DNA from: Histomonas meleagridis 2922-C6/04-290x
Lineage: Eukaryota; Protista; Parabasalia
Direction: 5' to 3'
Length of the DNA: 64,000 nucleotides
NCBI GenBank assembly: GCA_020184695.1
Contig: JAANOX010000061.1
Coordinates: 372,001 to 436,000 of the forward strand
Shown: piece by piece, positions 3,934-56,501 of the stretch
Numbering within the stretch: the first letter of the stretch is position 1
How the letters are laid out: every line of letters starts with the position of its first letter
The notes under the pieces: generated by a model
Databases searched by the model: none
The model's input: the letters and a program-made list of their open reading frames with translations, nothing else
Told to the model about the DNA's origin: nothing
Position numbers and translations under genes: made by a program

Positions 3934-4832
3934 ATGAAGAACATTCAAAGAATGATTGGGAATTATCTTTATGAAAGTAAAATTGAAGAAATTAATAATT
4001 TAGAAGAACTTGGAAAGTTGTGTATTTCATATCATAATTATGAAATATTTTCATTTTTACTTAAAGAAGGAATGAAAATCAATGATGATATTATTAATGA
4101 ATCAGCAATTATTAGAAACATTTTTTTAGTTGAATATTTTCTTAAAGAGCATGCAATTCCGCATGATATTTTGGTACTATCAGTTGGATCAGGAAATATT
4201 GAACTTACGTTCTTGAACAAGAAGGGATTGATATTAATGCCGAAGTTATTTATATGTTTTATTTAATTTTTATTTTAATCATTTGGAAATTCAAAATATT
4301 ATTAGGAAATTATTTAAATTCTTTAATACAGCACTTATGAAAGCATCTTCAAATGGTCATACAGAAATTGTTAAATTACTTCTTGAACAAGAAGGAATTG
4401 ATATTAAAGCTAAAAATATTTATTTGTTTTATTTAAGATTTATTTTCATAATTTGGAAATTATTCAAAATATTTGGAACAGCACTAATGCTGGCATCTAA
4501 AATTGGTAATGTAGAAATTACTAAATTACTTCTTAAACATGAAGGGATTAACATTAATGATAAAAATATTTATTCGTTTTATTTAAAATTTATTTTGAAA
4601 ATATAATAATTAATAATTATTTTTGGGAATCATTCAAATTATTTTCTACAGCACTTATGTGCGCAATTCAAAATTTCAACACAGAAATTTTACATTTCAA
4701 AATAATATTTGGAATTACTTATTAACATTTGAAACCGCGCTAATGATAGCATCAGAAAAGAAAAATACATATACTATTCAATTGTTTGCAGACAAAATTC
4801 AACATCAGAAATGTGGCCACATTCTAAAATAA
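3934..4832 (+). pseudogene. 5'-truncated ankyrin repeat gene with spacer-interrupted repeats
   Basis: Modules NTALMKASSNGHTEIVKLLLEQEGID and GTALMLASKIGNVE; spacers of 77 nt (4248-4324), 57 nt and 77 nt (4568-4644); internal deletions near 4210 and 4690. Confidence 0.75.
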
Positions 4833-31738: not shown

Positions 31739-34700
31739 TTTACCAAAATGGAAAGAATTCCATTTGATCATTTGCTTTATCTGTTATCTCATCTTGGATT
31801 CCTTCTTTTTTACGAAACATTTCAATTATTTCAGTATAATCATTTTCTTTTGCATACATGTATGCTGTCCAAAATACTTTATATAATTTTCAAATATGAT
31901 ATTTAAATCCAAAAAAATTTGAACGAACATTAAGCTTTATATGCAAACATCTTTAGCATTAATATCAATTCCTTCTTGTTCAAGTAATATCTTTACTATT
32001 TCTATGTGTCCATTTTCAGATGCACATATAAGTGCTGTTTTAAATATATATAATAATTTCCAAATATTTTTTTGATATATAAAATTATTAAAACAAATAT
32101 TAAAATAAATATATAACCATTTTTGGTATTTATATCAACACATTTTTGTGTAAGAAGTAATTTAACTATTTCTGTATGTCCACTTTGAGATGCTAATATA
32201 AGAGGTGTCTTAAATATCAAAAATAATTTCCATAAAAAAATTTAAAACATCAAATTATTTGTGGAAATGTTTTATAAAATTAATAAATACTTTTAGTATT
32301 AATATCAATTCCACCTTGTTTAAATAATATTTTGATTATTTTCTTGAAACCATTATAAGTTGCATACATAAATGCGTTCCAAAGTAATTTGAATTAGTTC
32401 CAAATATTATTTTAAATTATCAAATAAATGAAATGTTTATTTTCTATATTGAATAAATATTTTTAATATTGATATCAATTCCTTTTTGCTCGAGTAGTAA
32501 TTTAACTATTTCTGTATGACCATTTAAAGATGCTAAAATAAGTGCTGTATTAAATATTTTAAATAATTTCCAAATATTATTTTGAAATATAAAATTATTA
32601 AAATAAATTTGAAATAAAACAAATAAATATTTTTAGCATTAACGTCAATTCCTTCTTGTTCAAGAAGTAATTTAACTATTTCTGTATGACCATTCCAAGA
32701 TGCTCTAATAAGTGCTGTTTTAAATATTTCAAATAATTTCCAAATATTATTTTGAAATATCATCTTATTAAAATAAATATGAAATAAAACAAATAAATAT
32801 CTTTAGCATTAATATCAATTCCTTCTTGTTCGAGAAGTAATTTAACTATTTCTATCTGTTCATTTTCAGATGCATAAATAAGTGCTGAATAAAATAATTC
32901 AAATAATTTCCTAATATTATTTTGAAATATTAAATTATAATAATAAATATTATCTTTTGCATTAATATCAATTCCTTCTTGTTTAAGAAATAATTTAACT
33001 ATTTCTGCATATCCTATATTTGATGCTAATATAAGTGATGTTTTAAATATTTCAAATAATTTCCAAATATTATTTTGAAATATTAAAGTATTAAAATAAA
33101 TATTAAATAAAACAAATAAATATCTTTAGCATTAATATCAATTCCTTCTCGTTCGAGAAGTAATTTAACTATTTCTATCTGTTCATTTAAAAATGCATAA
33201 ATAAGCGCTGTATAAAATAATTCAAATAATTTCCAAATATTATTTTGAAATATCAAATTATTAAAATAAATTTTAAATAAAACAAATAAATATCTTTAGC
33301 ATTAATATCGATTCTTTCTTGTTCAAGAAGTAATTTAACGATTTCTATATGACCACATTGAGATGCTTTAATAAGTGCTGTTCCAAATAATTTAAATAAT
33401 TTTCAAATATTATTTTGAAATATAAAATTATTAAAATAAATATCAAATAAAACAAATAAATATCTTTAGCATTAATATCAATTCCTTCTTGTTCAAGAAG
33501 TAATATAACTATTTCTATATAACCATAATAAGATGCTTCTATAAGTGCTGTATAAAATAATTTCAATAATTTCCTAATGTTATTTTGAAATATAAAATTA
33601 TAATAATAAATATTATCTTTAGCATTAATATCGATTCTTTCTTGTTCAAGAAGTAATTTAACGATTTCTATATGACCATTTGAAGATGCTAAAATAAGTA
33701 CTGTTTTAAATATTTTAAATAATTTCCAAATATTATTTTGAAATATAAAATTATTAAAATAAAAATTATCTTTAGCATTAATATCAATTCCTTCTTGTTC
33801 AAGAAGTAATTTAACTATTTCTGTATGACCATTCCAAGATGCTCTAATAAGTGCTGTTTTTAAATATTTCAAATAATTTCCAAATATAAAATAAATATTA
33901 GATAAAACAAATAAATATCTTTAGCATTAATATCAATTCCTTCTTGTTCAAGAAGTAATTTAACTATTTCTATATGACCATTTGAAGATGCTAAAATAAG
34001 TACTGTTTTAAATATTTTAAATAATTTCCAAATATTATTTTGAAATATAAAATTATTAAAATAAAAATTATCTTTAGCATTAATATCGATTCTTTCTTGT
34101 TCAAGAAGTAATTTAACGATTTCTATATGACCACATTGAGATGCTTTAATAAGTGCTGTTCCAAATAATTTAAATAATTTTCAAATATTATTTTGAAATA
34201 TAAAATTATTAAAATAAATATCAAATAAAACAAATAAATATCTTTAGCATTAATATCAATTCCTTCTTGTTCAAGAAGTAATATAACTATTTCTATATAA
34301 CCATAATAAGATGCTTCTATAAGTGCTGTATAAAATAATTTCAATAATTTCCTAATGTTATTTTGAAATATAAAATTATAATAATAAATATTATCTTTAG
34401 CATTAATATCGATTCTTTCTTGTTCAAGAAGTAATTTAACGATTTCTATATGACCATTTGAAGATGCTAAAATAAGTACTGTTTTAAATATTTTAAATAA
34501 TTTCCAAATATTATTTTGAAATATAAAATTATTAAAATAAAAATTATCTTTAGCATTAATATCAATTCCTTCTTGTTCAAGAAGTAATTTAACTATTTCT
34601 GTATGACCATTCCAAGATGCTCTAATAAGTGCTGTTTTAAATATTTCAAATAATTTCCAAATATTATTTTGAAATATCATCTTATTAAAATAAATATTAG

Positions 34701-36205
34701 ATAAAACAAATAAATATCTTTAGCATTAATATCAATTCCTTCTTGTTCAAGAAGTAATTTAACGATTTCTATATGACCATTTGAAGATGCTAAAATAAGT
34801 ACTGTTTTAAATATTTTAAATAATTTCCAAATATTATTTTGAAATATAAAATTATTAAAATAAAAATTATCTTTAGCATTAATATCAATTCCTTCTTGTT
34901 CAAGAAGTAATTTAACTATTTCTGTATGACCATTCCAAGATGCTCTAATAAGTGCTGTTTTAAATATTTCAAATAATTTCCAAATATTATTTTGAAATAT
35001 CATCTTATTAAAATAAATTTCAAATAAAACAAATAAATATCTTTAGCATTAATATCAATTCCTTCTTGTATTAAAATATATTTAACAAGTTCAATATTTC
35101 CTGACTCTGATGAATATATTAATATATTTTTCGGAATTTGATTACTTTCAAGAAAATGTTTAATGAGAAATATGTTTCCAATTATTGCTGCTTCATTAAT
35201 AATGTTTTCGCTAATTGGCATCAATTCTTTGTGTAAAAATATAAAAATTTCATAATTATGAGATGAAATACACTTCTTTCCTAAATCTTCTAATTTTTTA
35301 ATATGACATATTTTATTTTCATATATATATTTAAAGATATCATTTCGATGGAACATAATTGCTGTTTCATATGCACCTTCAAATGATGAATGATTTTGTT
35401 CACATAAATGAATGATTTCTTCATTTCCACCTGCAACTGCATATTTACCTGTATTTTCTACATTTGTATTGTTCATAAGTAAATATTTAAAACATTTTAC
35501 TGATGAAAAAAATGCTGCATAATCAATTAATGTAACATATTTTTGATTAATAAATGAACATCTTTCATATAATGATGGTTCAATTTCTTGATTAAAATCA
35601 AAATTATTTTGTGATGATATTTCTTGAAGTTTTTCGATTTCATCTTTTCGAATTATTTTTGTAATTTCATTCGGATTATGTCCTTCTTTAATTAATTGTT
35701 TATGAAGTTCCCAATCATTCTTTGATAGTTCTTCAATGTTTACCATTTTTCGTTTCAAATATTCATTTTCTTCTAGAAATTTTTTGGACATGTAATGAAT
35801 AAAATATGGCTCTTCTCTTACCTGTTCAACTATGCTTGATTCGCATAAATTTTCTTGAATCATTCTCTCAAGAAAATAATTTGATTCTTGAGAATGTATA
35901 TTTAAAATCATTTTTAAAAAAACTTTATGTATTTTACTTTGAATTTGTTTGTTATCTTCAATTTTTTGTGTTTCTTTAATGAAACTCACATAGACTCCTA
36001 AATCGTTCATTCTTGCTATGAATGATGAATAAATTATTTGACTAATAAGTAAGTTAAATGAATACTGGTAATTATTATCAAATACACCAAATATTGAAAG
36101 AGCTGATTGAAGAACATTTTCTTTATTTAATGAAAATATTATTTCTTGAATAAACTGAATTGTTTCCCAATTGTTCATTTTGGTTTTATCACTTTGTTTC
36201 ATCAT
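31739..36205 (-). CDS. DUF3447-type N-terminus plus about 20 ankyrin modules, each preceded by an AT-rich non-GT-AG spacer
   Basis: ORF 35000-36205 ends in NAKD plus spacer; 31-codon modules (e.g. KTALIRASWNGHTEIVKLLLEQEGIDINAKD) separated by 12x77-nt, 7x60-nt and 1x56-nt spacers; last module WTAYMYAKEN ends at TAA 31739-31741. Confidence 0.8.
31872..35041 (-). repeat. Tandem array of ankyrin module plus spacer units (period 153 or 170 bp)
   Basis: Directly visible; includes a near-identical 4-module block repeated at 778 bp offset. Confidence 0.95.
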
Positions 36206-37966: not shown

Positions 37967-38590
37967 ATGAGCAGAGCAGGTTTTTATTTTATCGGTGATA
38001 AAACAGTTGGGAAGACAACAATATGCCATGGCATACGTGCATGCATGTACAAACCAGAGGAAGATCTCTTGTTACTAAAAGAAACAATTTTTTATGGAAA
38101 CAATTATGTGACTAATCTTCCTGATAACAAAAGTAATGTTAGACATCTTTTTGTAGGAGAAGTGTGTGGATGTGTGCCTAACAATATCCGAGAATTAACA
38201 TATTTTGCATATTCGCCAAAATCAATATCAATATGTTTTGTTTGTTATAGTGTTGTTGATCAAACTTCGTTTTTAAATGTAACGAATCTTTGGGTAAAAG
38301 AAATTAAACAACATGAGCTTAATCCGAAAATAATCCTTGTCGGTACTAAAACAGATCTCCGTGAAGATGAAGAGACTCTTGATGAGCTCTTTAAAAATGG
38401 GAAAAGTCCAATTACCACAAAACAAGGAAAAGTTTTAGCAGAAACAATTGGCGCAATTGATTATTTTGAATGCACAGCCACAAACATTGAAACCATTAAA
38501 AGAATATACAATAAGGGGCTTGATTTAATTTATAATGCTAACGATGATAAGATTACAAAAGGTAGCCAATCTTTTTGTTCAATTCAATAA
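37967..38590 (+). CDS. Divergent Rho/Rac-family GTPase
   Basis: Likely ATG at 37967; GDKTVGKT P-loop, LVGTKTDLR, Rho insert, YFECTA, CAAX CSIQ; DTAGQ switch II is replaced. Confidence 0.85.
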   Translation: MSRAGFYFIGDKTVGKTTICHGIRACMYKPEEDLLLLKETIFYGNNYVTNLPDNKSNVRHLFVGEVCGCVPNNIRELTYFAYSPKSISICFVCYSVVDQTSFLNVTNLWVKEIKQHELNPKIILVGTKTDLREDEETLDELFKNGKSPITTKQGKVLAETIGAIDYFECTATNIETIKRIYNKGLDLIYNANDDKITKGSQSFCSIQ

Positions 38591-39159
38591 ATTTTATTCA
38601 AATTTTATTCATTTGCAAATGCACTTTTTCCCATATTTTATTATGATCCTTCAGGGTGTATGACATTTAATTGAAATTTTGGCATGAGAGACCTCATAGA
38701 ATTTTTTGAATTGACTTTTGCTCTGTTGGCGGGTAGCCGAAGTTTAGGCGCCATTTTCATTTTTGATGTTTGCAATCATCATTCACTTCCTCATCTAATC
38801 AACAATATATGTTCCAACTTACTGATGATAAAATTGAAGAAGTAATAAAGAACATTTAATAAGAAACAAATTACAAATTCTTTTTTATAAAACAACTGAG
38901 AAAAAAACAAACAATAATTGAGATACAAACAAACAATAACTGAGACACAAATAAGAATAAAAACATCAAATTAAAATCATGAAATGTAAAGTATAGAAAA
39001 AGATATATATGTATAAAAAAATGACAAAAAATACATATGATATGAAAAACAGCACATTAACAAAACATGAAATAAGAATAAAGTATAAAATGACACATAT
39101 AAATACACACAATTACGAAAATACATTATGTAGTCAACCTAAAAATAAATTTCCAGGTA

Positions 39160-41820
39160 CCTGACACTTTTTGAGTTGGTGACGGTTATGTTCCATCACA
39201 CTTCCATTCAACCTTGAACCATACTACATTACGTTTTTCTTTGTAATTATACCTGATATCATGATCAATTATCCTGTTTATTTCGTATTCCATCTAATTA
39301 AATGACACTATTGTTCTCTTCTTTGGTCATTCGACTTTTTGAAATATTTAAATTTCATAATTATACTTTTGTGGCAATATTATGATGTGTTCCATTCAAT
39401 GTTATACGCCATTTGGCATCATATTATCTTACCCACTTTTTCAATGATGATTATATTGTCACTTTCCTCGTAAACCATTCAATTGATATTAGTAAATATG
39501 ATGTTTTTCATATCATATGTTTTTTTTGTCACTTTTCTATTTTGATTTGACTAAGTCTGTTTAACATTTGTAATTTTTTTATATAAGTATAAAGTATCCA
39601 AAGAATGGAATCAGTAAACAATCTAGGCTCTGATAAATGATGGTTTGACAGTTACCTTAACCTAGTTATCTGACATATTTTTTTTATTCTTAATACTAAT
39701 TGACATATTTATAAATTTTAATTGTATTGTGACATTTGTGATTTTTATTCAATTTTTATCGTAGGTAATTGAATTTATTTTGATGTGTTTTTGACATTCT
39801 TTCAATTAATTTTTTAATTTGATGTTTAGTCAGTTGTAAAAACATTTATTTTTTTTTTCGGTTTTTTCGATATAATTTTTTTTCTTTTTGACTATGCACA
39901 TTAGTGATAATAACAAAGTTTGTTCACTCAATGGGCTATTAAATTTCTTTTTTTCTTTTTCTTTATTTTATAAAATTTAATCCCCCTCCCCCAAAGAGAG
40001 CCCTAATGGCGAATGAGTGCATTTATCACAAACCTGCAGTAGCCCGACTCCGCGGAGCACTTTTTTATAAAAGGGCGTAGACAGGTGATCAGTATAAAGT
40101 GTACTAGAGGTGGGGGTCAGGTTTGATTCTATTTTTGAAAGGAGACCGTTATTTTAGGACGTTCATAAATAAAAAGATTTTCACACTCCCCCTCATTCCA
40201 AGGGGACGTTAAACGGCTGGTACCTTGCGAATGATATAAACTGGTACGAATAAATCGAGAGTACGATAGATCGAAAATTAAAAGGATGTTTTGTCTACTT
40301 ATCAAAATTGAATAGGGGATTATTTCCGATTTTTTAGCAAAAGTCTCTTTTTAATTCAAATTATTCATTAAATTTTCTAATCTTTCTTCTCTAAGTTTAT
40401 TTTCGTCGAATCTTAATTTACAGAACCATCGACTTTTACATTGTACAGGACTTCTGTTTTGCAAACATATGGAAATATATTTTTATTGATGACCAAATTT
40501 GCAATTCATATCGTATGAAACTTTATCTTCTTCTTCTGACCAAGGACAGTATGTTCTCATGTTAGAAATAATTTCTTTAAATTCCTTTTCTAAACCTAAA
40601 AACCTTGAAATTGTACCTCCATTCATTTCAAGACAAAGCCGTAAACGGTCTCCAAAACCCAAACAAAGATTGTTAATTAATGAAATGTCCAAATTGTCCC
40701 ATGTCTGTTCCAAGATCAATTTCAACTTATCCAGATCTTTTGGGGACCTCTTGTAAATTATTTGCTTCATTATAGCCCAGAGCAACTCGATTGGGTTTAG
40801 GTCAGGTGAGTTGGCCGGCCAATCATCTATTACATCGACACGATCCTCAAGCCACTCCATAGATTGTACTGAAGTATGGCACCGAGCCCCATCCTGAACA
40901 TAAATCCAATCAAGCTTACATGGGTTTTGTTTATATCCTCAATAAAATTGGAAGCTTCCATGTTTTGTATATATTGTCCTGAGTCAATTAATTTATCTAC
41001 AATTACTAATTCGCTCTTGTACCCAAATAATATCACACCATAGATCATTACAGATTTTGAAAATTTGGCCTTTTTTATAATTGTTTCTTCGACATACTCG
41101 CCTTTTCTCATCCACATCCATTCATAATCTTTTCCCGAGACAAATCGCGATTCATCAGAGAAAGCGATCTTGTCAAGATATGATTTTTGTGTGAGTATCT
41201 TTTTGCAAATTCGATTCTTGCTTCTATTTGTTGAGGCGTTAAATCTTGTTCTATTTTACAAGGTCTATAACGAAATTTCATTTCGTTTCTGACCTTTGTA
41301 ACAGATTGATGAAAAATCGATAAATGAAAACATTCTTCAATTTTATCCGCTAATTCTTTTGAATATAATGTTGGTTCAAGAAGGGTCTTTAATTCTATAA
41401 ATTCTTTAATTTTATTTGTAATAACAACTGGTCTTCCTCTTTTTGTTGCATCAGGTACTTGACCAGTATTGGTGTATGCTTTAATTGTACTGCTTATCCT
41501 GTTAGTACCTACATGAAGGGTATTTGCTATTGTTTGATAGTTGTGCCCTAATTTGTACATTTCTATTATTGACTGTTCTTTGTTCCACGGAGTCATCTGA
41601 TCTAAATTTACAAACGGTGTTTATTGAAAAAATTCAATATGTTCTCTCGAGCTCGGATTATTTGTACCAGTTTATTACGTGTAAAAATCTATCATTTTTT
41701 CTCATAACGGTCGCCTATCGTTCGGAATTGAATACTTTATTTTATAAATTCAATTCGTTTTGATCGGCACGGGACGATACGCATTTTTCTCATAACGGTC
41801 GCCAACTCAAAAAGTTAAGG
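39160..41820 (-). mobile_element. Tc1-family DD34E transposon with TIRs and TA target duplication
   Basis: Left end CCTGACACTTTTTGAGTTGGTGACGGTTATG versus the reverse complement of the right end CCTTAACTTTTTGAGTTGGCGACCGTTATG; TA at 39158-39159 and 41821-41822. Confidence 0.85.
40351..41596 (-). pseudogene. Tc1 transposase (two frameshifts, one stop) with C-terminal Myb domain
   Basis: HTH N-terminus; FSDESRF, QDGARCH and WPANSPDLNPIE with D-34-E spacing; then PWSEEED...GHQ*KYISICLQNRSPVQCKSRW. Confidence 0.9.
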
Positions 41821-41847
41821 TACCTTAAATACAATTATAGGTAAACT

Positions 41848-42849
41848 TTATTGTATCAAATGAATTATTAATTCATTTGAGTTTAATTCAGATTGATAGA
41901 ATAAGTCATCTGGAGACTTAATTTCTATTTCGTTAGATCTTCTTTTTAAAGCATTTATATCTTCATCAGATATTCCTTCGAAGCACTGTTCTATGCTATG
42001 ATTTGAAGTAATTATAAATTTAGAGCAACCATGGTACATTACAATTGAACTTCCTTCAATTTCACAAAGGAATGGATAACGATCTCCCCAAATTTTCATG
42101 TGTTGAATTAGATATTTTTCATCAGATGGGAAATCATCTAGTATCACAACTTTGTGATCACCGATAATGTAACCATCCCACCATTTGTTAAATGCCTTTG
42201 GGTATACTAGATGTCCTGGTACCTTATGTGCCCATCTAGATTTTCCTATTCCAGGAAGTCCCCAAATCCGGTAGTTTATATTAAGCAACTCTCCTTGATA
42301 TGTTCCACTATTTTGCATATTTCTTAACATATGTGCTCTTTTTACTGTTAATATTTGGTTACGATGAATGATCATTTCACGTGGGTATTTACTCTCCAAT
42401 TCTTCAATATTCAATTCCTTGATATCATTCATCAACATTGCATAATATCTATCTTCTTCCAATCTTCTGCAACAATTTTTGCTTAATTCTCCAAATTCCC
42501 AATATTTATCTCCTTTTTTACAATATCTTATATTAACATCTTCAGCAGATCTTGAAGGTTCTAAATAAAATCCTCCTATTCCTACTTTACTTATTAATGT
42601 ATTTTTTATTGACTTCTTCTTTTCATGAAAATATATTTGCAAATGTTGAGTTCCTGTTGTTGGTGCCACTTCTTTACCAATAATACCATATTTACAATTT
42701 GTACTAATAAATAATTTGAAAGCTGAATATGATTCCTCTGTATAATTATTTACTGTTGCTTTAGGGTTGACTTCTGATACTCTTCTTTGCTGTTCCAAAG
42801 TTCTTCTTGCTTGTTGCGCCTCTACACTTCTTCTAGCCATAATTAACAA
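41848..42849 (-). CDS. rep: CRESS-DNA-virus-like Rep (HUH endonuclease plus SF3 helicase), endogenous viral element
   Basis: Motif I-like ATVNN, II HLQ, III YCKK; Walker A GLPGIGKS, KWWDGY, Walker B ILDDF, DRYP, motif C ITSN, Arg finger ALKRR. Confidence 0.92.
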   Translation of the reverse strand: MLIMARRSVEAQQARRTLEQQRRVSEVNPKATVNNYTEESYSAFKLFISTNCKYGIIGKEVAPTTGTQHLQIYFHEKKKSIKNTLISKVGIGGFYLEPSRSAEDVNIRYCKKGDKYWEFGELSKNCCRRLEEDRYYAMLMNDIKELNIEELESKYPREMIIHRNQILTVKRAHMLRNMQNSGTYQGELLNINYRIWGLPGIGKSRWAHKVPGHLVYPKAFNKWWDGYIIGDHKVVILDDFPSDEKYLIQHMKIWGDRYPFLCEIEGSSIVMYHGCSKFIITSNHSIEQCFEGISDEDINALKRRSNEIEIKSPDDLFYQSELNSNELIIHLIQ

Positions 42850-43365
42850 ATGGTTCTGCCAAATTTATTTATGCCACCACTTTTTCAAATAAAGTATTCA
42901 ATTGACATAATGTAATATTCAAAGATATTTCATATCATGTGTCAAAAGCAAGTTCCTAACTTGACACTTTGTGGGAATATTCATTTTTATTTTTAGATCT
43001 ATGGAATATAAAGAATCTTTTGATAATTTTAACTTCAGTGATAATGATTTTAATGATTTCAATAATGTTTATCCTGAAACCTTACGTTCGGAATACGAAG
43101 AAAAACCTTATCAAATAATTCTGTACCTTTCTAACGGTGATATTACAACATGATTTCTTTCGTAAGTGAAAACAAATGATTTGTCATAACTATTTATCTG
43201 TAATGTACATATACCATTTGATTATGTATCAGATGTTTTTGATTGATTACTGTATACAACACTGTTTTTTTTCATTAATGCTCTAACTATATTTTCGATT
43301 TTTTCAAACTGTGAATTTGACATTTTTAATAAGATAAAAATGTATAAAAGGTAGGTATATAATGC

Positions 43366-43442
43366 GGTCGGGAATGATCACGAGGACCCTAGGGGCCCCG
43401 CCGGGGGCGGGGCCCCTAGGGTCCTCGTGATCATTCCCGACC
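43366..43442. other. Perfect 37-bp GC-rich inverted repeat (3-nt loop)
   Basis: GGTCGGGAATGATCACGAGGACCCTAGGGGCCCCGCC-GGG-exact reverse complement. Confidence 0.97.
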
Positions 43443-43456
43443 TTAAGTTTTCACTG

Positions 43457-43491
43457 GGGGGATTGGAGGCCTCAGACCCCTCCAATCCCCC
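43457..43491. other. 13-bp GC-rich stem with 9-nt loop
   Basis: GGGGGATTGGAGG-CCTCAGACC-CCTCCAATCCCCC. Confidence 0.9.
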
Positions 43492-43656
43492 GAGTGTGCT
43501 CGCTCCGCTAATCATAATGATTTTTGTGAGCCATACAATTCGTCTGAAAATTTGAATGCGCATTCAATTTTGAGAGAACTCGAAACTTTTTGATAGGAAC
43601 GATAGCACTTTTAGCACCACTTTTCGCATAAATATATCAAAAACCTCACATAACCA

Positions 43657-43965
43657 ACACGAATTGTCCCCGGTTATCTTTGGTCGGACATTTATCCTAT
43701 TCAAAATCCTAGATATATAGTAGTACAACAATGTAAGTGTAAATTTATAGAATATTTAGTATTTGATGTTTCAATGCATGCTGATTTCATTGAACGTGAT
43801 CATTATGAAGATTATTTTTGTATTTATACGAATGAAAATAGAACTAAATATAAGAAATATGGATATAAAAGTAGAAAACCAAATTTTAAAATATGGTTTA
43901 AAGAAATGAATGGTAAAGAAATTGAACCAGAATATTTTATGTTAGAATTATTATTAATTTATTAA
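43657..43965 (+). pseudogene. Small beta-rich virus-like (single jelly-roll/penton-like) ORF
   Basis: Open frame QNPRYIVVQQCKC..MHADFIE..YFCIY..NFKIWFKEMNGKEI..FMLELLLIY; beta-strand pattern; start disrupted. The fold call is inference. Confidence 0.4.
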
Positions 43966-44256
43966 ATAAAAATCATTTTTTATCGATGTTTAGTATTGAG
44001 AATGCTACGAAAGAATATTATTAAAATAAAATATTATTTATATATATTGTTTTGAAACTATTCCAAATCCCAGGCGTCCTTAAAGAACACCTGTGTTCCA
44101 TTTGTCATAGTTTAGTTTCAAAAATTCATTATAATTTAATAAATTTTTCATTTTTTCGAATGATTTGACATGAATATTGCATGTTTCTTCGGTTACTGAA
44201 AGGTTAACTTTTTGTGATTTTGTAACCCTTGAATTTTTTATATATGTTTTGCATGA

Positions 44257-45033
44257 ATTTTTATAATATATAAAATTTATAACGCAGTAATTGATTATAC
44301 GATTACTTTTTACGATGCTGAACATTACAATAGAATTGACGTAAACTTACCGTCACCGCCAACACGTCAAGCAAAAATGATTGTAACATCGTTAACGATC
44401 AAATGTTCTATTGTTGTTATTGAGAAAGATGATTTTATACAGATTAACGGTGAAAAATATCATTACAATAATGATTACACTGACTTAAACTCACAAACGT
44501 TTATATTACTGTTGAATTAATTAATTCAAGAATCAGGTGTTACGTCTGAAGTCGACGGAGCAGGAAGAATAGTATTTACTTCTTCAAATGCCTTTACAAT
44601 AAATAATGCTTCATATAATATAATTCAAATTTCAGGGTTATACTCACAAATTTATCTTATACCATCAACATTTAATGGTACAGATACATTTGATATATTC
44701 GCTGAATCAGTCGGAAATACTTTATCAACTCCAGTATTATATCTTTTGTCGAATGTTGGAAAAAGTTCTTATATAAATTTAAACGAAACCATTAACATCT
44801 CAAAAATTGTTCTTATAATTAATAACTCTTTTTCGGCAGATTTTCCAATTATTGTATCAAACGCTGATTTTGAAATTAACATAAATTCTAATGATTTGTC
44901 ACATATTCAATTAACACTCGTTGACGCAAACCTTCACGAAGTACATTTACTGAATTCAATGTATATAACTATTTCTGTTCAAGGAATGCCAGATGAAGAT
45001 TTATTTGTTGGTGAGATTCAAAATCAAAAATAA
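44257..45033 (+). pseudogene. Penton/minor-capsid-like protein with one in-frame stop
   Basis: Single frame broken only by TAA 44518-44520: RIDVNLPSPPTRQAKMIVTSL...STPVLYLLSNVG...LSHIQLTLVDANLHEVHLLNSMYITISV. Confidence 0.5.
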
Positions 45034-45041
45034 TTTTTATT

Positions 45042-45345
45042 TCATTTTTTTATTTTAGCTTTATCGGCAATTATTACTCTTCGTGCTTTAATGTGAATGC
45101 TAAAGGTTGCGTGTAAACTTTGAAGTTTAGAATAAACGGACCATGAATTATTTACGTCAAATATTGATGCAGGACTTTCTTTTATTAAGTCATAAAAATC
45201 ATCTTTTGAAATTCCATCAAACAGAACAATATCTGACAAAGTTCTTTTTATATCTTTTTATATACTTTTTGTTGTTTGCACACATATGATGACGTTAATA
45301 TTAAAGTGTCTGAGTTTTTTGAGTAATCTTGACATCTCCGTTTCT
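45042..45345 (-). pseudogene. A32/FtsK-HerA-like packaging ATPase C-terminal remnant
   Basis: EMSRLLKKLRHFNINVIICVQTTKSI*KDIKRTLSDIVLF shows the RH..I.I..Q arginine-finger/Q-sensor pattern; Walker A/B not found. Confidence 0.65.
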
Positions 45346-45589
45346 TTTCATTCACCATATACCGAAGAATTTTCGCGATAAATATTAATAGAATGGTATT
45401 CTTTTGGTGAACATCAACATGATTCAGTGACTACTGTAGATGATACATTAAAATATTATCAATATGTAGTTTTAATAAGAAATTTTATTCATTAATCAAA
45501 AAATTACCAGATAATATTAGAAATAAATATCTTAATATATATTCTGAAAATTCTATAGATTATATTATAAATATTAATAATAGTGATTA

Positions 45590-46085
45590 TACATATGAAA
45601 ATATCATAAGAAATCAATACGAAAAATATGATTATTATAAATTAATAAATGTGTCAAGAGGTGTCATTGGTATCGTTAAATCTAGGGTATATATCATAGA
45701 AATCAAAAATGAACAAATACATATTAGAGAATCATCTATCAAAAATATTCGTGAAGAATTTTCATTATACAAATTATCCAAAAATAATACAAAAAATAAC
45801 ATTATATAATATATGAACATTCTAATTGGTTTTAAGATGAATGATGCAAAAATAATGATCAAATATAATAATGACGATAATATTATTATTAATGTATTTC
45901 AAGGATTTAAATAAATCTGACAGTGATGATTTCACGATATTAGATTCATTATTAAATCATATAAAAATCATAGTATGTAATAATGATCAAAAATATCATC
46001 ATATCATGAAATGGTGGGCAAATATATTTCATAAAATAACTTTCAAAAATAGAACTATGCCAATTATCTATGGTGCTCGAGGTTC
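45590..46085 (+). pseudogene. D5-like (SF3) primase-helicase remnant
   Basis: INVFQGFK, then LLNHIKIIVCNN..YHHIMKWWANIF..MPIIYGARGS, truncated within Walker A. Confidence 0.65.
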
Positions 46086-47205
46086 TGATAATTTTAGACG
46101 ATATTCCATATAGATGGTGGAAAAACTCCAATAAAAAATCAGTTACTCCAAATAATATCCAAGCACTCCAACAGATGAATCCAGCAAACATAAAAAAAAA
46201 TAAGCTTCGAATAATGATTGGTCATTTAATGGATGCATTGATGATGAGTTTGAGAAGTACTTTAGTAATGCAAACGGATCGAATCGAAAGCACCGCCTCG
46301 GATGATAAACGGTCGTTTCAAAAACATGAAATCCGTTTTTCTTTTTAGTAAATATTTCCGATCTATCTATATGATGATAGTAATATATTTTAATGGTACG
46401 GCATTATTTTCAAAAAATCATTCTGAGTATCACATATTGGAGACCCAATTTCACATACAAATTTAAAAACAAATTTTTAAGTTCACACTCGCTTAAAATC
46501 AACAAAGAATAAAATAATTTATGATCAAGAGAGATCTATGAGATGTTTTTGAAATATGGAATCATTGTGATTACATTTGATATGAGCAAAATTTCGAAAA
46601 TCTGTCAAATCTGACAAAATCTTTAAAATTCGATAAATTTTGGATACAAGTATATAATTTTAAATAATATATAATATTCATTTCATTAATTAATTTCCAA
46701 AATTCGAGAGCTTCCATCTGTAATTAAATAGGTCACTCGGTGTCAGATAGGTAAAAAATTGAAAACTTTTGTCACTTTTCATTCAATTAATATCAAAAAT
46801 TTGGTCCACCCTTTTGAGGGTATAAAATTTAAATATCTTATCCTATAATTATTTATTCCTATTCCTTATTATAAAATAAAATAGTTGCCTATGTATGTAA
46901 TAAATATATTTTTACTATGATGGTAACTCAATTCCGTATTTTTAAAAAAAATTAAAATATTAACGTTATCACGAGGACGTTTATACTGATATCATTATAT
47001 AATAAAAATAATAATTTTTTTTCAAAAATATAATATTTATAAAATTTATTTTCACGTGCCATTATAATAATCAACTGTGCTTATTTGTTGTCAATATTCA
47101 ATGTTTTACATAATTTTTTGAATATGTAAAATTGGTGCAATTATGTCTGCATTAAAGATGTAGCATATCTTGAATATATATTCCTTCCAGCTTTACTGGA
47201 AAATC

Positions 47206-49239
47206 TCATTTGTGATGCTTGCATTTGCCCCTTAATTGAAACATCATTTTTTTCGTGAACATGTGCTCACTTTTGAGTATAGATATATGTTCATTATATA
47301 ATCTTTCACCTCCTTCAATTGGCAATTCATTTCGATTAAATGAATCATAATATGCAGAATCCCTTGGAAAACTCACTCCAGAATTTATATAAATTTTTTT
47401 GGCTGTGAATATGCATGATTGGATTAACTCAGGATGCAAAGGAATACAATTTGACTCGACTTTGGCAGATGAAAACAACCTTTGTCTTAATTTTACGTAA
47501 TAAAAATCTAACTTATTACATTTCGTTAAAACCATTTTTTATTGCATGGGTTGTTTGCTCTTTTCCGGACTCATACCTCAGAAGTGATAACAAATGTTCA
47601 GATGCAATGGTTCCTCGTTTAAAAACCAATTTGGCAAAATATATTAATTAAGATTTCGTGATGAATCTACAGTTACACGAGAAACACCATCAAGATCTAT
47701 TTTTTTTGGGAGTTATTTTCGTAATTTAATTATTCTTTTTTATTCACAGAAATCCTGGTTTTTGTGATTAATCTGGAACTGACCCTTTTCATGTGTGGGC
47801 AATCGTTTGTAAAAAATTTTTTGCTGATTGGTATATCAAATATATTCCCTTCATGATTTACAATATATTTTGACCATTCATCGAAAAAAGTAGCAAAATT
47901 ACTTTCATATGATGGATAAGCATCTGTTCCAATTCCTATGACTTCTATATTATATTTATTTATAATACTGGGGATTGTTTCTATCATTTTCAGAACATAG
48001 TCATCTGCCAATGAACTTGGACTTAGATAAATATGTGTTGGATAGGATTTGATATGAGATAATGGACATTCAGTAACAATAAAAATAAAATTTGCGATAT
48101 TCTTTCTCTGAAGCTGTAAGTTATATATTTTCGAGTACATCGACTAATCTCCACGAATATTTTCAAGTATATAAACTATTTTACTGTCAATCACACCATC
48201 TATTGCAACTTTATGATCAATATATATATCTTCATCAAGTTTCATGGCATAGATTGATAATGTACACTTTAAATCATTATATTCATACAAATTCCTCCAA
48301 AAATCTGAAATTCAATTTATATTTTCGACATTTTGAAACTCTTCAAAATGAGAAATTTTTTCATTTTGAAGCCAATTATAAATAGCAGATGCACTTGGCC
48401 CCTTCATATTAATTTGAAAAAAATTAATAACTTTTTGTCCAAAGTTATATCGTTATCGAAAAGTTTTTCAGTATTTCATCATATTTTGGTTTACGACGTA
48501 AATTTAAATCTGATTCTTGTATTATATGTGATAATATCGGAGTAAATTCTTTTCGAATTTAATCTTTTTTCATTTATGTCTCTTGCCTTTTTTTTCTCAT
48601 TTCTTCCATTTTTTCATTTTGTTTCTTTTGTTTGATAATTTCCTGGTTTGTTTTTTTGATATGAAATTTGATTTTGTGCCTCATTTTCTTCAAATGTTTG
48701 ATCATCAAAATTATTCGATAGCTCTTCTTGATAAGTAATATTATTGTGAAAATAATTACTATATATTTTATAATCATTTAATATTGAATCCCATTTTTTC
48801 ATCCTTTTTTAATTAGCTAAATCACTCTATAAATGATATAGATATGATGATATTGTATAGGGCCATTAAATAAACTTGAAAATAAAATAGAATCTTCGTA
48901 TTCTGTCCGATTTGTTCGAGCAAACCATTCTCTTAATTTCTTTGATTTTGTTTTGGTTGATAAGAATTTTTTTGATTCTTCTTTGAGATAACAATACCAA
49001 ATTCCTGATTGCATAAACCCAATTAGAGATAAAGCTTTTGGTAAATCAAAAATTAAACCTTGATCATATAGTTGAAATGCAAAAATTAATGCAAATTCAA
49101 AAGTAACAGGAACGGAACAAAATTTGTCTTTGTTCCTTTTGAATATTACGAATCGTTGAGTTGGAGTAAAAGAAAATTCATTAAAATCGATCATGTGTAT
49201 TTGCATTTCCAAAATTGGTTTTCTAACGAATTTATGCAC
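47206..49239 (-). mobile_element. Degraded P-element/THAP9-like DDE transposase
   Basis: Fragments CTLSIYAMKLDEDIYID (mutated first-D region), VIGIGTDA, FTNDCPHMKR (DxxH) and IASEHLLSLLRYESG (E region); no TIRs identified. Confidence 0.55.
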
Positions 49240-49519
49240 TTTTTTTCGAAATTTAATAGTTTATTATATCGTTCAATTTAAAAACATATTACACTAAAAA
49301 TATTCCAACGAAAAATTAATTTTATCTTAACATTTTTATTCAAAAAAAGATTAACTTTATACATTCTATATGATATTATATTATGAACTAAATCTACAAG
49401 AAAAGGCCATCCTAGGCGGTCCTAATCGAATAATAGAAATTCTGGATCAAACACTCAATTAAGATCTTAATTTTTATTCAAAAGTTTTCATAATATATTG
49501 AATATTTATATTTAAAAAG

Positions 49520-54006: not shown

Positions 54007-54548
54007 TTTTTTCATTAAATTTTTTTTCTGATGATAATACATCTGTTAATTGAAATGATAATGAAATAAATAACATCAAAATATTGTAAAAAATATTTAA
54101 AATCAAGTAATTGAGAGATATTGGAGGAATTTTGAGAAAAAATTCAATTGTAAATTACAAGATAACATCATAACATCAACATATTATTCATTAAATTTAA
54201 GATATATATATATATACTTATGTTATTAATTTAATGAAAGAGAATTATATTTAAATATAAATAATAATAATAATAAAAATATATTTGAACAGGTTTTTCA
54301 TGTTCCAACTTTTTGATCGTATTTTCTTGTTATAAACATTTTTATCTCCAAATCAAATAATAATTTACTAAAATAATATGGTAACATCAATTGGAATTAT
54401 TAAGTTGTTTATTATATTTTAAAAAATTTCTAAATATTATCTTGACACATCAAATTTTTATAATAAGTATCATTTAAAGTAAATATAAATCTTTTGAATT
54501 AATATCATTTATATTTTTTGTTGATCCAAACTTATTAGCTTCTTCCAA

Positions 54549-56501
54549 TTATTTTTGTTCAAGTAATTGAACTATTTCTGTATGACCATTTGCAGATGCA
54601 TATAAAAGTGCTGTCCAAAATAATTTAAATAATTTCCAGTTATTATTTTGAAATCCAAAATTATTAATATAAATTTTGTTTTTAGCATTAATATCAATTC
54701 CTTCTTGTTCAAGAAGTAATTTAACTATTTCTGTATGACCATTTTCAGATGCTATAATATGTGGAGTTTCAAATAACTTATTTAAATTCCGAATATTGTT
54801 TTTAAATAATAAATTGTTGAAATATATATTAAATAAAATAAATAAACATCTTTAACATTAATATCAATTTTTTCTTGTTCAAGAAGTAATTTAACCATTT
54901 CGATGTGATTTTTTTCAGTTCCAAAATATAATATCGATTTAAATATTGAAAATAATTACCTAATATATATTTAAAATATCAATTCATTATAACAAACATA
55001 AAATAAACACAAATAATGTTTTTATAATTAATGATTTCTTCTTTTTTAAGAAGTATTTTAAATATTTCAGTTTGATCATTTCGCGATGACTGTGAAAATG
55101 ATGTTCTAAATAATTTAATAAAATTCCAAATATTATTTCAAAATATCAAAACGTTAAAACATATTTTAATACAAACAAATTAATATTTTTAGCATTAATA
55201 TCAATCCCTTCTTGTTTAATAATATATTGAACAAGTTCAATATTTCCTGATTCTGATGCAAAAACTAATATGTTTTTCGGAATTTGATTATGCTCAAGAA
55301 AATATTTGACAAGATATAAATTACCTGTTTTCGCTGATACATTAATTATATATTCATCAAATTTGATTTCTTCTTCTAAAAATGAAAGAATTTCAGAATT
55401 ACCAATATTAATACATTGATAAATTTGTTCTTGGAATTTAATATCAGTTAATGTTTGCGTGTTATTTATATAATATCCAAAGTTTTTAAATGGAATTTTG
55501 TTTGTAATTACATATGTTAATAAATGTTGTTGATTGTTTTGATCTAGTTTTTCGATTTTGTTTTCATAAATATATTTAAAGATATCATTTCGATGAAATT
55601 TAATTGCTATTTCATAAACATCGTCAAATCTCGAGTGATTTTGTTCACATAAATAAATAATTTCAAGATTTCCACTTGCAATTGCATATTTACCTGTGTT
55701 TTCGACTTTTGCATTATTCATTAATAAATATTTAAAACATTGAATTGCTCCAAAAAATGCTGCAAAATCAATTAATGTAACATTTTCTTTGTTAATAAAT
55801 GAATATCGTTCATAAAGTGATGGTTTAATGGTTTGATTAAAATCAAAATCTTCTTGTGTTGATATTTCTTGAAGTTTCTCTATATCATCATTTCGAATGA
55901 TTTTTGATATTTCATTCGGATTAACTCCTTCTTTAACGAATTGCTTATGAAGTTCCCAATCATTCTTTGATAATTTTTCATAATTATTTTTAAATTCTTT
56001 ATTTAATGGATCTTTAGATTCGTTTTTCTTGTTTTCTTCTTCAGTTTTATAATGTGAAAAATAATTGGTATGAAAGTTATTGGTAATATTTATATTAATT
56101 AATTCGTTTTCAATCATTTTTTCAATGATATAATATGTCTCTTGTGTATTAAATTCTGATATATAATTAGTAAAAATTTCAATAATTTTTGGATTGTTGT
56201 GAACAATTGCTTCTTCTTGTGTTTGAATTTCTTGTAAAAAATTGAAATATGTTCGGATTGATTCTCTTTGAGATGAAAATGCTGAATAAATTAAAACAAT
56301 TATACAATAATTAAATGTAAAAGGAAAATCTTTATCAAATAAATTCATTGTTTTTGCAACAGAAATTTCAAAGTTTTTTTCTGTAAGATTAAATATAACC
56401 TGTTCTAAAGAAATCAAATTTTGCATATGTACAGATTGGTTATTAATTGATGTATTATTTGCTTCATTTTCTGATTCAAGTGTTTGTATGCTTTCAGTCA
56501 T
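54549..56501 (-). CDS. DUF3447-type plus ankyrin gene with four spacer-interrupted modules
   Basis: Paralogue of the 35000-36205 ORF; spacers of 77 (55108-55184), 77 (54941-55017), 77 (54771-54847) and 60 nt (54618-54677). Confidence 0.8.

What the first reader, a model, noticed from the sequence alone, without database searches (positions are those of the whole stretch)
41848..46085. Composite virus-like element: rolling-circle Rep next to penton-like genes, A32-like ATPase and D5-like helicase
Seen: Rep (minus strand) diverges from plus-strand beta-rich ORFs across a hairpin-bearing intergenic region, followed by an RH/Q-sensor ATPase remnant and a D5-like remnant. Established: penton plus A32-like ATPase are Varidnaviria (Polinton/PLV/adenovirus/NCLDV) morphogenesis genes, whereas HUH-SF3 Reps are Cressdnaviricota genes. 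RCR Rep with a double-jelly-roll module is known in prokaryotic viruses such as PM2. Inference: either an undescribed hybrid virus/element of parabasalids, or a CRESS EVE inserted beside a decayed Polinton-like element. No major capsid protein was recognised.
Basis: partly seen in the sequence, partly recalled or inferred. Interest (0 to 1): 0.78.

Follow-up and report, generated by a model that had tools for sequence, protein, structure and literature searches.

The report
Kirkovirus Rep beside decayed Polinton fragments
Leftovers of two unrelated, already known virus types of gut protists, a single-copy replication gene of a small circular DNA virus and broken pieces of a many-copy Polinton virus, lie side by side in a transposon-rich spot, likely by chance rather than as one hybrid virus.

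Summary
The genes are real, but they most likely do not form one element.

The Rep (41851-42840, minus) is an open 330-codon HUH/SF3 gene that groups with a kirkovirus Rep. The penton is confirmed by fold. The ATPase is only the C-terminal third of an A32 ATPase, butted against a frameshifted middle piece of a D5-like helicase.

Penton, ATPase, D5-like gene and a fourth fragment match Polinton-like elements from gut metagenomes, which also carry a double-jelly-roll capsid and a PolB-like gene. None of 36 such loci has a Rep, and none of 83 Rep loci has these genes.

In contigs of two DNA runs (one study, perhaps the window's source), the Rep lies at single-copy depth and the penton/ATPase stretch is a multi-copy repeat. 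At 43130, other copies continue the Polinton gene instead of running into the Rep side. The 37-bp hairpin lies in the repeat, 526 bp from the Rep start. A Tc1-like transposon abuts the Rep's other end.

Kirkovirus insertions and Polintons are both published for parabasalids. No whole genome was held, so a small Rep-bearing subfamily is not excluded (about 5%).

The parts
39166..41815 (-). Tc1/IS630-like DNA transposon with a broken transposase (pieces within 40483-41620); its right inverted repeat ends within 35 bp of the Rep stop codon
   Evidence: Inverted repeats 39166-39190 / 41791-41815, 92%; Pfam DDE_3 E 2.9e-10, HTH_Tnp_Tc3_2 E 0.0049; summed depth about 1300-2000 against about 600 over the Rep
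41848..42840 (-). Kirkovirus-like CRESS Rep (HUH endonuclease + SF3 helicase), 330 codons, open; motif I lacks about five residues present in 14 of the 15 aligned relatives (the 15th is truncated there)
   Evidence: Pfam; 119 homologues, donkey kirkovirus replicase at 32%; alignment; tree clade 100/97 with that Rep; one contig 41714-42903, depth 608, no differences
42841..43000 (.). AT-rich spacer upstream of Rep; weak possible stem-loop, no origin shown
   Evidence: Folds at only -16.1 kcal/mol over 170 nt; 42856-42907 is shared with other loci
43001..43153 (+). Short D/N/F-rich ORF (50 codons) in a moderately repeated segment of unknown origin; may be the start of a kirkovirus second ORF or part of another repeat
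   Evidence: No Pfam hit; no hit in 116 loci; one 74-nt contig at depth 9136, about 15 times the Rep depth
43130..43349 (-). N-terminal fragment of a Polinton gene (cluster C6, about 1200 aa in relatives), cut at 43130
   Evidence: 58% over 71 aa, E 3e-18; HMM iE 1e-23; other copies continue the frame past 43130
43366..43496 (.). Perfect 37-bp GC-rich hairpin and a second hairpin, inside the multi-copy segment; likely near the end of a mobile element starting at 43350
   Evidence: contigs starting at 43350 have mixed flanks, agreement 0.59-0.63
43654..43965 (+). Frameshifted copy of a conserved 113-116-aa gene; a small jelly-roll capsid protein is only a lead
   Evidence: 4 homologues at 63-85%; HH comparison to cluster C3 only E 0.04, probability 1.3%
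44275..45033 (+). Penton (minor capsid protein) pseudogene: single jelly roll with insertion domain, one internal stop
   Evidence: 267 homologues; model of an intact 88%-identical relative, pLDDT 68; Foldseek adomavirus LO5 E 2e-8, mavirus penton E 2e-5, Sputnik chain N; VIA best Z 11.2, rmsd 4.3, 219 aligned, a PBCV-1 capsid chain
45042..45347 (-). C-terminal third of an A32-like packaging ATPase (RH..Q motif present, Walker A and B absent), one internal stop
   Evidence: 73% to residues 211-301 of a 307-aa relative; relatives hit Pox_A32 at E 2.5e-6, Walker motifs at residues 66 and 196; the fragment alone E 0.02
45346..46086 (+). Middle fragment of a D5-like (SF3) helicase gene, two frameshifts plus stops, ending inside Walker A
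   Evidence: 42-62% to residues 389-638 of 926-929-aa relatives, which hit DUF5906 at E 2e-11; Walker A at 634; single contig 45318-46393 at depth 634

Best explanation
The locus is likely an inert pile of separate insertions in a parabasalid protist genome: a single-copy kirkovirus-like Rep lies between a Tc1-like transposon and rearranged fragments of multi-copy Polinton-like viruses. Shown: the identity of the genes, the broken state of all Polinton genes, the contrast in depth, and junctions where other copies read differently. Inferred: the Rep entered as part of a circular ssDNA kirkovirus genome, through Rep nicking-joining or host repair. The penton, ATPase, D5-like and C6 pieces come from integrated dsDNA Polinton-like viruses that in intact form would replicate with a PolB/D5 module and package DNA with the A32 ATPase into a double-jelly-roll capsid. 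Nested insertion and deletion then joined the pieces, for example cutting off the front of the ATPase against the middle of a D5-like gene. Nothing here could make a virion or replicate by itself. The order of events is not determined.
For: Rep absent from 36 of 36 penton loci (223,612 bp; 18 loci of 5 kb or more), with the Rep profile finding 80 of 80 control loci. Eight Polinton-side profiles hit 0 of 83 Rep loci. 32 of 36 penton loci carry the ATPase (13 in the window's convergent layout), 17 a PolB-like gene, 7 the D5-like gene and 5 a 561-aa gene whose 91%-identical relative folds as a double-jelly-roll capsid. Summed contig depth: 537-753 over the Rep, 163,000-436,000 over 43176-45513, 711-906 over the D5 piece. 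At 43130, 5 contigs in X1 and 4 in X2 (agreement 0.98-1) carry other letters, which continue the C6 reading frame, while one single-depth contig per run runs to the Rep side. The two best-matching viral contigs of about 3.9 kb have their own ORFs beside Rep, none matching the window's. Kirkovirus EVEs in Histomonas and Tritrichomonas (PMC9615429, section 8) and parabasalid Polintons with capsid genes (PMC10120064, passages) are published.
Against: No whole genome was held, so the host's other Rep and Polinton copies could not be mapped. The gene neighbourhoods of the closest Reps (P0001-P0005, 40-47%) were not seen. The 83 Rep loci are only 27-36% identical, and few are kirkovirus-like. The 36 penton loci are other lineages (mostly 50-79%), redundant, and mostly fragments. 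The Rep frame is open while its neighbours are decayed, which could mean selection. The 42960-43129 segment between Rep and Polinton pieces is unidentified and is itself repeated. Contigs across the junctions have only 28-30 letters on the short side, under the tool's 31-letter bar, come from one study that may be the window's source, and the loose-end tables were cut (68 and 525 rows not shown). Summed depth is not a copy number.
Confidence: 0.88

Rival explanations
1. A Polinton lineage of this host captured a kirkovirus Rep and spread with it, forming a real Rep + penton + ATPase element of which this is a decayed copy.
For: Precedents exist in eukaryotes (PMC11253617 abstract; PMC11071296 and 10.64898/2026.06.19.733378 passages). 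Both virus types share parabasalid hosts. The Rep frame is open. The best viral fold matches of the penton are adomavirus LO5 proteins. Reps diverge fast, so sister copies under 85% identity would be missed.
Against: 0 of 36 and 0 of 83 co-occurrences; the listed other copies continue C6 at 43130; further junctions at 43350 and 44152 separate Rep from penton; relatives carry a PolB-like gene.
Confidence: 0.05
2. Kirkovirus DNA integrates preferentially into or beside Polinton copies, for example by Rep nicking at their hairpins, so the neighbourhood is non-random although the two are separate elements.
For: The multi-copy segment bears strong hairpins; HUH enzymes act on hairpin substrates (established knowledge); over 100 kirkovirus Rep EVEs were counted in two Histomonas assemblies (PMC9615429, section 8).
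Against: The junction at 43130 is 236 bp from the hairpin and inside a coding fragment. The hairpin loop is 3 nt with no nonamer. One locus gives no statistics.
Confidence: 0.05
3. The adjacency is an assembly artefact: unique and repeated pieces were mis-joined across repeats.
For: Junctions coincide with repeat boundaries; no listed contig spans the whole stretch; bridging is 28-30 letters.
Against: Single-depth contigs with no differences cross 43130 and 45346 in both runs, and one crosses the Tc1-Rep boundary with over 100 letters on each side.
Confidence: 0.02

Closest known systems
Kirkoviridae endogenous viral elements of parabasalids (Kinsella et al. 2022, PMC9615429)
   Same: HUH + SF3 Rep grouping with a donkey kirkovirus Rep; integrated in what looks like a parabasalid genome
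   Different: Only 32% to the named kirkovirus Rep; no Cap found beside it; motif I damaged; whether this very copy was among the EVEs counted was not checked
Metamonada (parabasalid) Maverick-Polintons (Bellas et al. 2023, PMC10120064; bioRxiv 10.64898/2026.06.19.733378)
   Same: Penton, A32 ATPase and D5-like helicase; multi-copy; relatives have a double-jelly-roll MCP, a PolB-like gene and, in one contig, KilA-N
   Different: This copy lacks MCP, PolB and integrase and is a mosaic of broken pieces; no sequence comparison with published T. vaginalis elements was possible
Mriyaviruses and Zora-group viruses (PMC11253617; 10.64898/2026.06.19.733378)
   Same: HUH endonuclease together with double-jelly-roll morphogenesis genes in eukaryotic viruses
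   Different: There the genes share one replicon (35-45 kb for mriyaviruses); here Rep and morphogenesis genes differ in copy number and co-occur at none of the other loci examined
Adomaviruses with CressRep (PMC11071296)
   Same: CRESS-like Rep with adenovirus-like virion genes; their LO5 penton is the best viral fold match
   Different: Circular 9-20 kb genomes, not defined by an A32 ATPase or D5 gene; the penton's sequence relatives here are Polinton-like elements

Membership tests
Kirkoviridae (as endogenous element) | Rep with HUH endonuclease and SF3 helicase domains | tested here: met
   Pfam PF00910 and PF02407; motifs in alignment, motif I shortened
Kirkoviridae (as endogenous element) | Rep falls in the kirkovirus clade | tested here: inconclusive
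   Starred clade of 27 of 43 rows (100/97) includes the one named kirkovirus Rep; no references of neighbouring families were in the tree; 40 of 119 hits used
Kirkoviridae (as endogenous element) | Cap gene and 3-5 ORFs on a circular ssDNA genome | tested here: not met
   No window ORF piece in 42860-46500 matches ORFs of the 80 Rep loci, including L001 and L002, beyond noise; the element is an integrated fragment
Kirkoviridae (as endogenous element) | Stem-loop origin with a nonanucleotide near Rep | tested here: inconclusive
   Only a weak fold upstream of Rep; the strong hairpin has a 3-nt loop and lies in the multi-copy segment
Maverick-Polinton / PLV of Metamonada | Penton (single jelly roll minor capsid protein) | tested here: met
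   on an intact 88%-identical relative
Maverick-Polinton / PLV of Metamonada | A32-like packaging ATPase | tested here: met
   Fragment 73% identical to full Pox_A32 proteins; Walker A and B missing in this copy
Maverick-Polinton / PLV of Metamonada | Double-jelly-roll major capsid protein | tested here: not met
   Absent from the window; present in 5 of 36 related loci. This copy is a fragment, not an intact member
Maverick-Polinton / PLV of Metamonada | Protein-primed PolB | tested here: not met
   Absent from the window; a divergent PolB-like gene in 17 of 36 related loci by motifs recalled from family B polymerases, with no Pfam PolB or PDB hit
Maverick-Polinton / PLV of Metamonada | Retroviral-type integrase | tested here: inconclusive
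   No rve hit among 15 window proteins or 27 ORFs of related loci; the loci are partial
Maverick-Polinton / PLV of Metamonada | Terminal inverted repeats and target-site duplication | tested here: inconclusive
   No long inverted repeat encloses the stretch; a possible single terminus at 43350
HUH + jelly-roll hybrid virus (mriyavirus-, PM2- or adomavirus-like) | Rep and morphogenesis genes recur together on one replicon | tested here: not met
   0 of 36 and 0 of 83 loci; different depth and a private junction
HUH + jelly-roll hybrid virus (mriyavirus-, PM2- or adomavirus-like) | Circular or encapsidated form | not testable with these tools
   Only contigs of public runs were available

The most novel reading that the evidence does not exclude
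A subfamily of this host's Polintons captured a kirkovirus Rep, giving a rolling-circle element with a CRESS-type Rep, a penton and an A32 ATPase, and this locus is a decayed copy whose sisters were hidden by Rep divergence and cut tables.
Probability: 0.05. Interest if true: 0.65.

Novelty: new member of a known kind. Interest (0 to 1): 0.17.

Why it matters
As it stands it is a minor record: one more kirkovirus-like fossil and one more Polinton remnant in a parabasalid, and a caution that nested insertions imitate hybrid viruses. It shows the two virus types in the same host genome, the precondition for gene exchange. A true Rep-Polinton hybrid would add a CRESS-to-Preplasmiviricota replication swap in a host that can be cultured, though similar pairings are already described. 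The by-product may be more useful: Polinton-like elements on contigs up to 17 kb in human-gut and other metagenomes, with folded penton and major capsid, in a group that a 2026 preprint still lists as unplaced.

Tried and rejected
Whole-genome search: no genome held.

Rep alone against viral contigs: nothing. Penton alignment against viral contigs: 218 pattern matches, none confirmed. A 17-nt hairpin pattern in viral contigs: 0. A tighter Rep alignment gave almost the same loci, 3 new.

Penton by Pfam or PDB sequence: no informative hit. ORF 43654 as a second penton: HH E 0.04 to C3 and 0.41 to the penton alignment; Atlas hits were weak bacterial DUF3841 clusters with low recognition; its profile hit none of the 36 loci. 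Not accepted. C3 as a penton paralogue: E 0.16, not shown.

The 37-bp hairpin as the Rep origin: rejected on position, loop size and depth. No perfect stem of 13 bp or more was found in the 36 related loci, so the hairpin is not shown to be a general feature of the family.

The NCBI name 'DNA methyltransferase' for homologue P0132 was rejected, as the family folds as a penton. No RNA holder was listed, and the sparse pieces in runs X6 and X8 were not used as evidence.

Earlier findings of the scan: three look-ups, nothing.

Literature searches: 'Histomonas meleagridis'+'Maverick' gave 2 papers, neither on this by listing; 'Dientamoeba fragilis'+'Polinton' gave 0; a six-term hybrid search gave 4 papers, of which I read passages of two. 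I found no parabasalid Rep-Polinton hybrid in these. Supplements of PMC9615429 and PMC10120064 were not read and may list this very EVE or Polinton family.
Full report
Setting. The window is AT-rich with eukaryotic-looking genes. The one named homologue among the 120 listed for the penton is from Histomonas meleagridis at 81%, so the host is taken to be a parabasalid protist (inference). No whole genome was held.

Rep. 41851-42840 (minus) is an open 330-codon frame with Pfam RNA_helicase (E 3.8e-6) and Viral_Rep (E 4.3e-4, below cut-off). Of 874 candidates, 119 scored E<=0.001; the best named one is a donkey kirkovirus replicase at 32%, the best overall 47%. In a tree of 43 rows (40 of the 119 hits, two locus Reps and the query) it sits in a 27-row clade (100/97) with that kirkovirus Rep; other families were not represented by named references. 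Against 15 close relatives, motif I lacks about five residues, so the protein may be inactive although the frame is open. Kirkovirus EVEs are known in parabasalids: 102 Rep-like sequences in two Histomonas assemblies and three in T. foetus (PMC9615429; passages and section 8 read).

Penton. About 44275-45033 (+) has one internal stop. Read with X, it found 267 homologues among 643 candidates. A model of an intact 88%-identical relative from a 44-sequence alignment (pLDDT 68) matched adomavirus LO5, MELD-virus penton and minor capsid proteins in BFVD (best E 2e-8), mavirus penton and a Sputnik capsid chain in the PDB (E 2e-5 and 2e-4), and by VIA a PBCV-1 capsid chain (Z 11.2, rmsd 4.3, 219 aligned), an aviadenovirus chain and mavirus penton. 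The identification is firm.

The parent element. The penton alignment found 36 loci in metagenome contigs, many labelled human gut. Clustering their ORFs and scanning 27 of them gave Pox_A32, DUF5906/VapE (D5-like SF3), KilA-N, DUF4108 and DUF3839. The ATPase is in 32 of 36 loci, 13 convergent with the penton as in the window and 19 in tandem; a PolB-like gene (motifs recalled, no Pfam PolB or PDB hit) is in 17, the D5-like gene in 7, C6 in 10 and C14 in 5. A 91%-identical relative of C14, modelled from a 60-sequence alignment at pLDDT 90, matches mavirus, iridovirus, Sputnik and PBCV-1 major capsid proteins (best E 2.5e-13). These are Polinton-like viruses of the kind described for parabasalids (PMC10120064, 10.1101/2024.03.23.586382 and 10.64898/2026.06.19.733378; passages only).

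What the window keeps. Comparing all locus ORFs with the window gave four genes: the start of C6 (43132-43332, minus, 58%), the penton, ATPase residues 211-301 (45075-45347, minus, 73%, without Walker A and B) and D5-like residues 389-638 (45346-46086, plus, 42-62%, in three frames, ending in Walker A). ATPase and D5 pieces meet at 45346/45347, which points to a deletion or insertion junction. No MCP or PolB-like remnant was detected. ORF 43654-43965 is a frameshifted copy of a conserved 113-116-aa protein (4 homologues, 63-85%) whose role is open.

Do Rep and capsid genes travel together? The Rep profile found nothing in the 36 penton loci (223,612 bp) and all 80 control loci. Eight profiles of Polinton-side proteins found nothing in 83 Rep loci. 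The limits are real: the loci are partial and redundant, the Rep loci are only 27-36% identical, and the contexts of the closest Reps could not be fetched. The two top loci, each about 3.9 kb, have their own ORFs, none matching the window's pieces.

Evidence from the organism's own DNA. Two DNA runs of one study hold about three quarters of the sampled words and may be the window's source. Laid on 38500-48500, summed depth is 537-753 over the Rep, which lies in one difference-free contig (41714-42903), 163,000-436,000 over 43176-45513, and 711-906 over the D5 piece, again one contig. Summed depth is no copy number, but 30 contigs sharing one variant at 44847 average about 17 times the Rep depth, so the penton stretch is a repeat of at least tens of copies (inference). 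At finer scale depth jumps at about 43130. There, 5 and 4 contigs carry other letters that continue the C6 frame, resembling the relatives' sequence, whereas one single-depth contig per run goes on to the Rep side. At 43349/43350, nine contigs continue the left part differently, and six and four start with mixed flanks, as at the end of a mobile element. At 44152, 43 contigs differ upstream. The junction contigs have only 28-30 letters on the short side, below the tool's bar of 31, and the loose-end tables were cut.

The hairpin. The 37-bp stem is far beyond chance (z -13) and the strongest in the window. It lies 526 bp from the Rep start, has a 3-nt loop and belongs to the multi-copy segment, so it is unlikely to be the Rep's origin. 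It was not found in the 36 related loci; its role is unexplained.

Surroundings. A Tc1-like transposon (inverted repeats 39166-39190 and 41791-41815, DDE_3 E 2.9e-10) ends within 35 bp of the Rep stop, and further repeats lie right of 46090. The spot collects insertions.

Verdict. The best reading (0.88) is a chance mosaic of a kirkovirus-like fossil and decayed Polinton-like pieces. A Rep-bearing Polinton subfamily (0.05), targeted integration (0.05) and misassembly (0.02) remain. Even the hybrid would have eukaryotic precedents: mriyaviruses (PMC11253617, abstract), Zora-group viruses and CressRep adomaviruses (PMC11071296, passages). Other papers seen as passages: PMC12892396, PMC4028283, PMC11296320, PMC8529796 (about 2% annotated repeats) and PMC13735942 (no mention of Mavericks). 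No supplements were read. Novelty: new member of known kinds; interest 0.17.

Noticed in passing
L081-L112 (e.g. L083, L090, L095, L112): Polinton-like elements on contigs up to 17 kb in human-gut and other metagenomes, in two gene orders, with penton, A32 ATPase, double-jelly-roll MCP, divergent PolB-like and D5-like genes. The host is probably a gut parabasalid (inference). One search for Dientamoeba fragilis with Polinton found no paper.
   Followed up: partly
P0132 (NCBI XP_067774580.1): A Histomonas protein named 'DNA methyltransferase' is 81% identical to the window's penton; the name looks wrong.
   Followed up: yes
window 43350-43496: Possible terminus of a multi-copy mobile element with a perfect 37-bp hairpin; variants exist in other copies, and one contig joins it to sequence at about 40105 inside the Tc1-like element.
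   Followed up: partly
window 39836-40169: GC-richer segment with high summed depth (37,000-56,000) inside the Tc1-like element, probably another nested repeat.
   Followed up: no
window 41726-41748 and 42881-42903: A 23-nt inverted repeat (91%) upstream of both the transposase and the Rep; the second arm is shared with other loci; possibly a common promoter motif of mobile elements.
   Followed up: no
window 46182-49260: A further repeat (about 10 times Rep depth) and minus-strand ORF pieces without a clear Pfam hit; a second copy with 79 differences exists; perhaps a decayed transposase.
   Followed up: partly
L110, L113, L115: Penton pieces joined to bacterial-type genes in L110 and L113 (MFS, GmrSD, Dit, HsdR, nucleotidyl transferase), and a shortened penton ORF in L115; probably chimeric assemblies.
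   Followed up: no
window 31764-35300 and 54400-55300: Arrays of 153/170-bp units in ankyrin-like genes, with an inverted copy near 4210-4690; the repeat looks as if each unit has an interruption of the frame.
   Followed up: no
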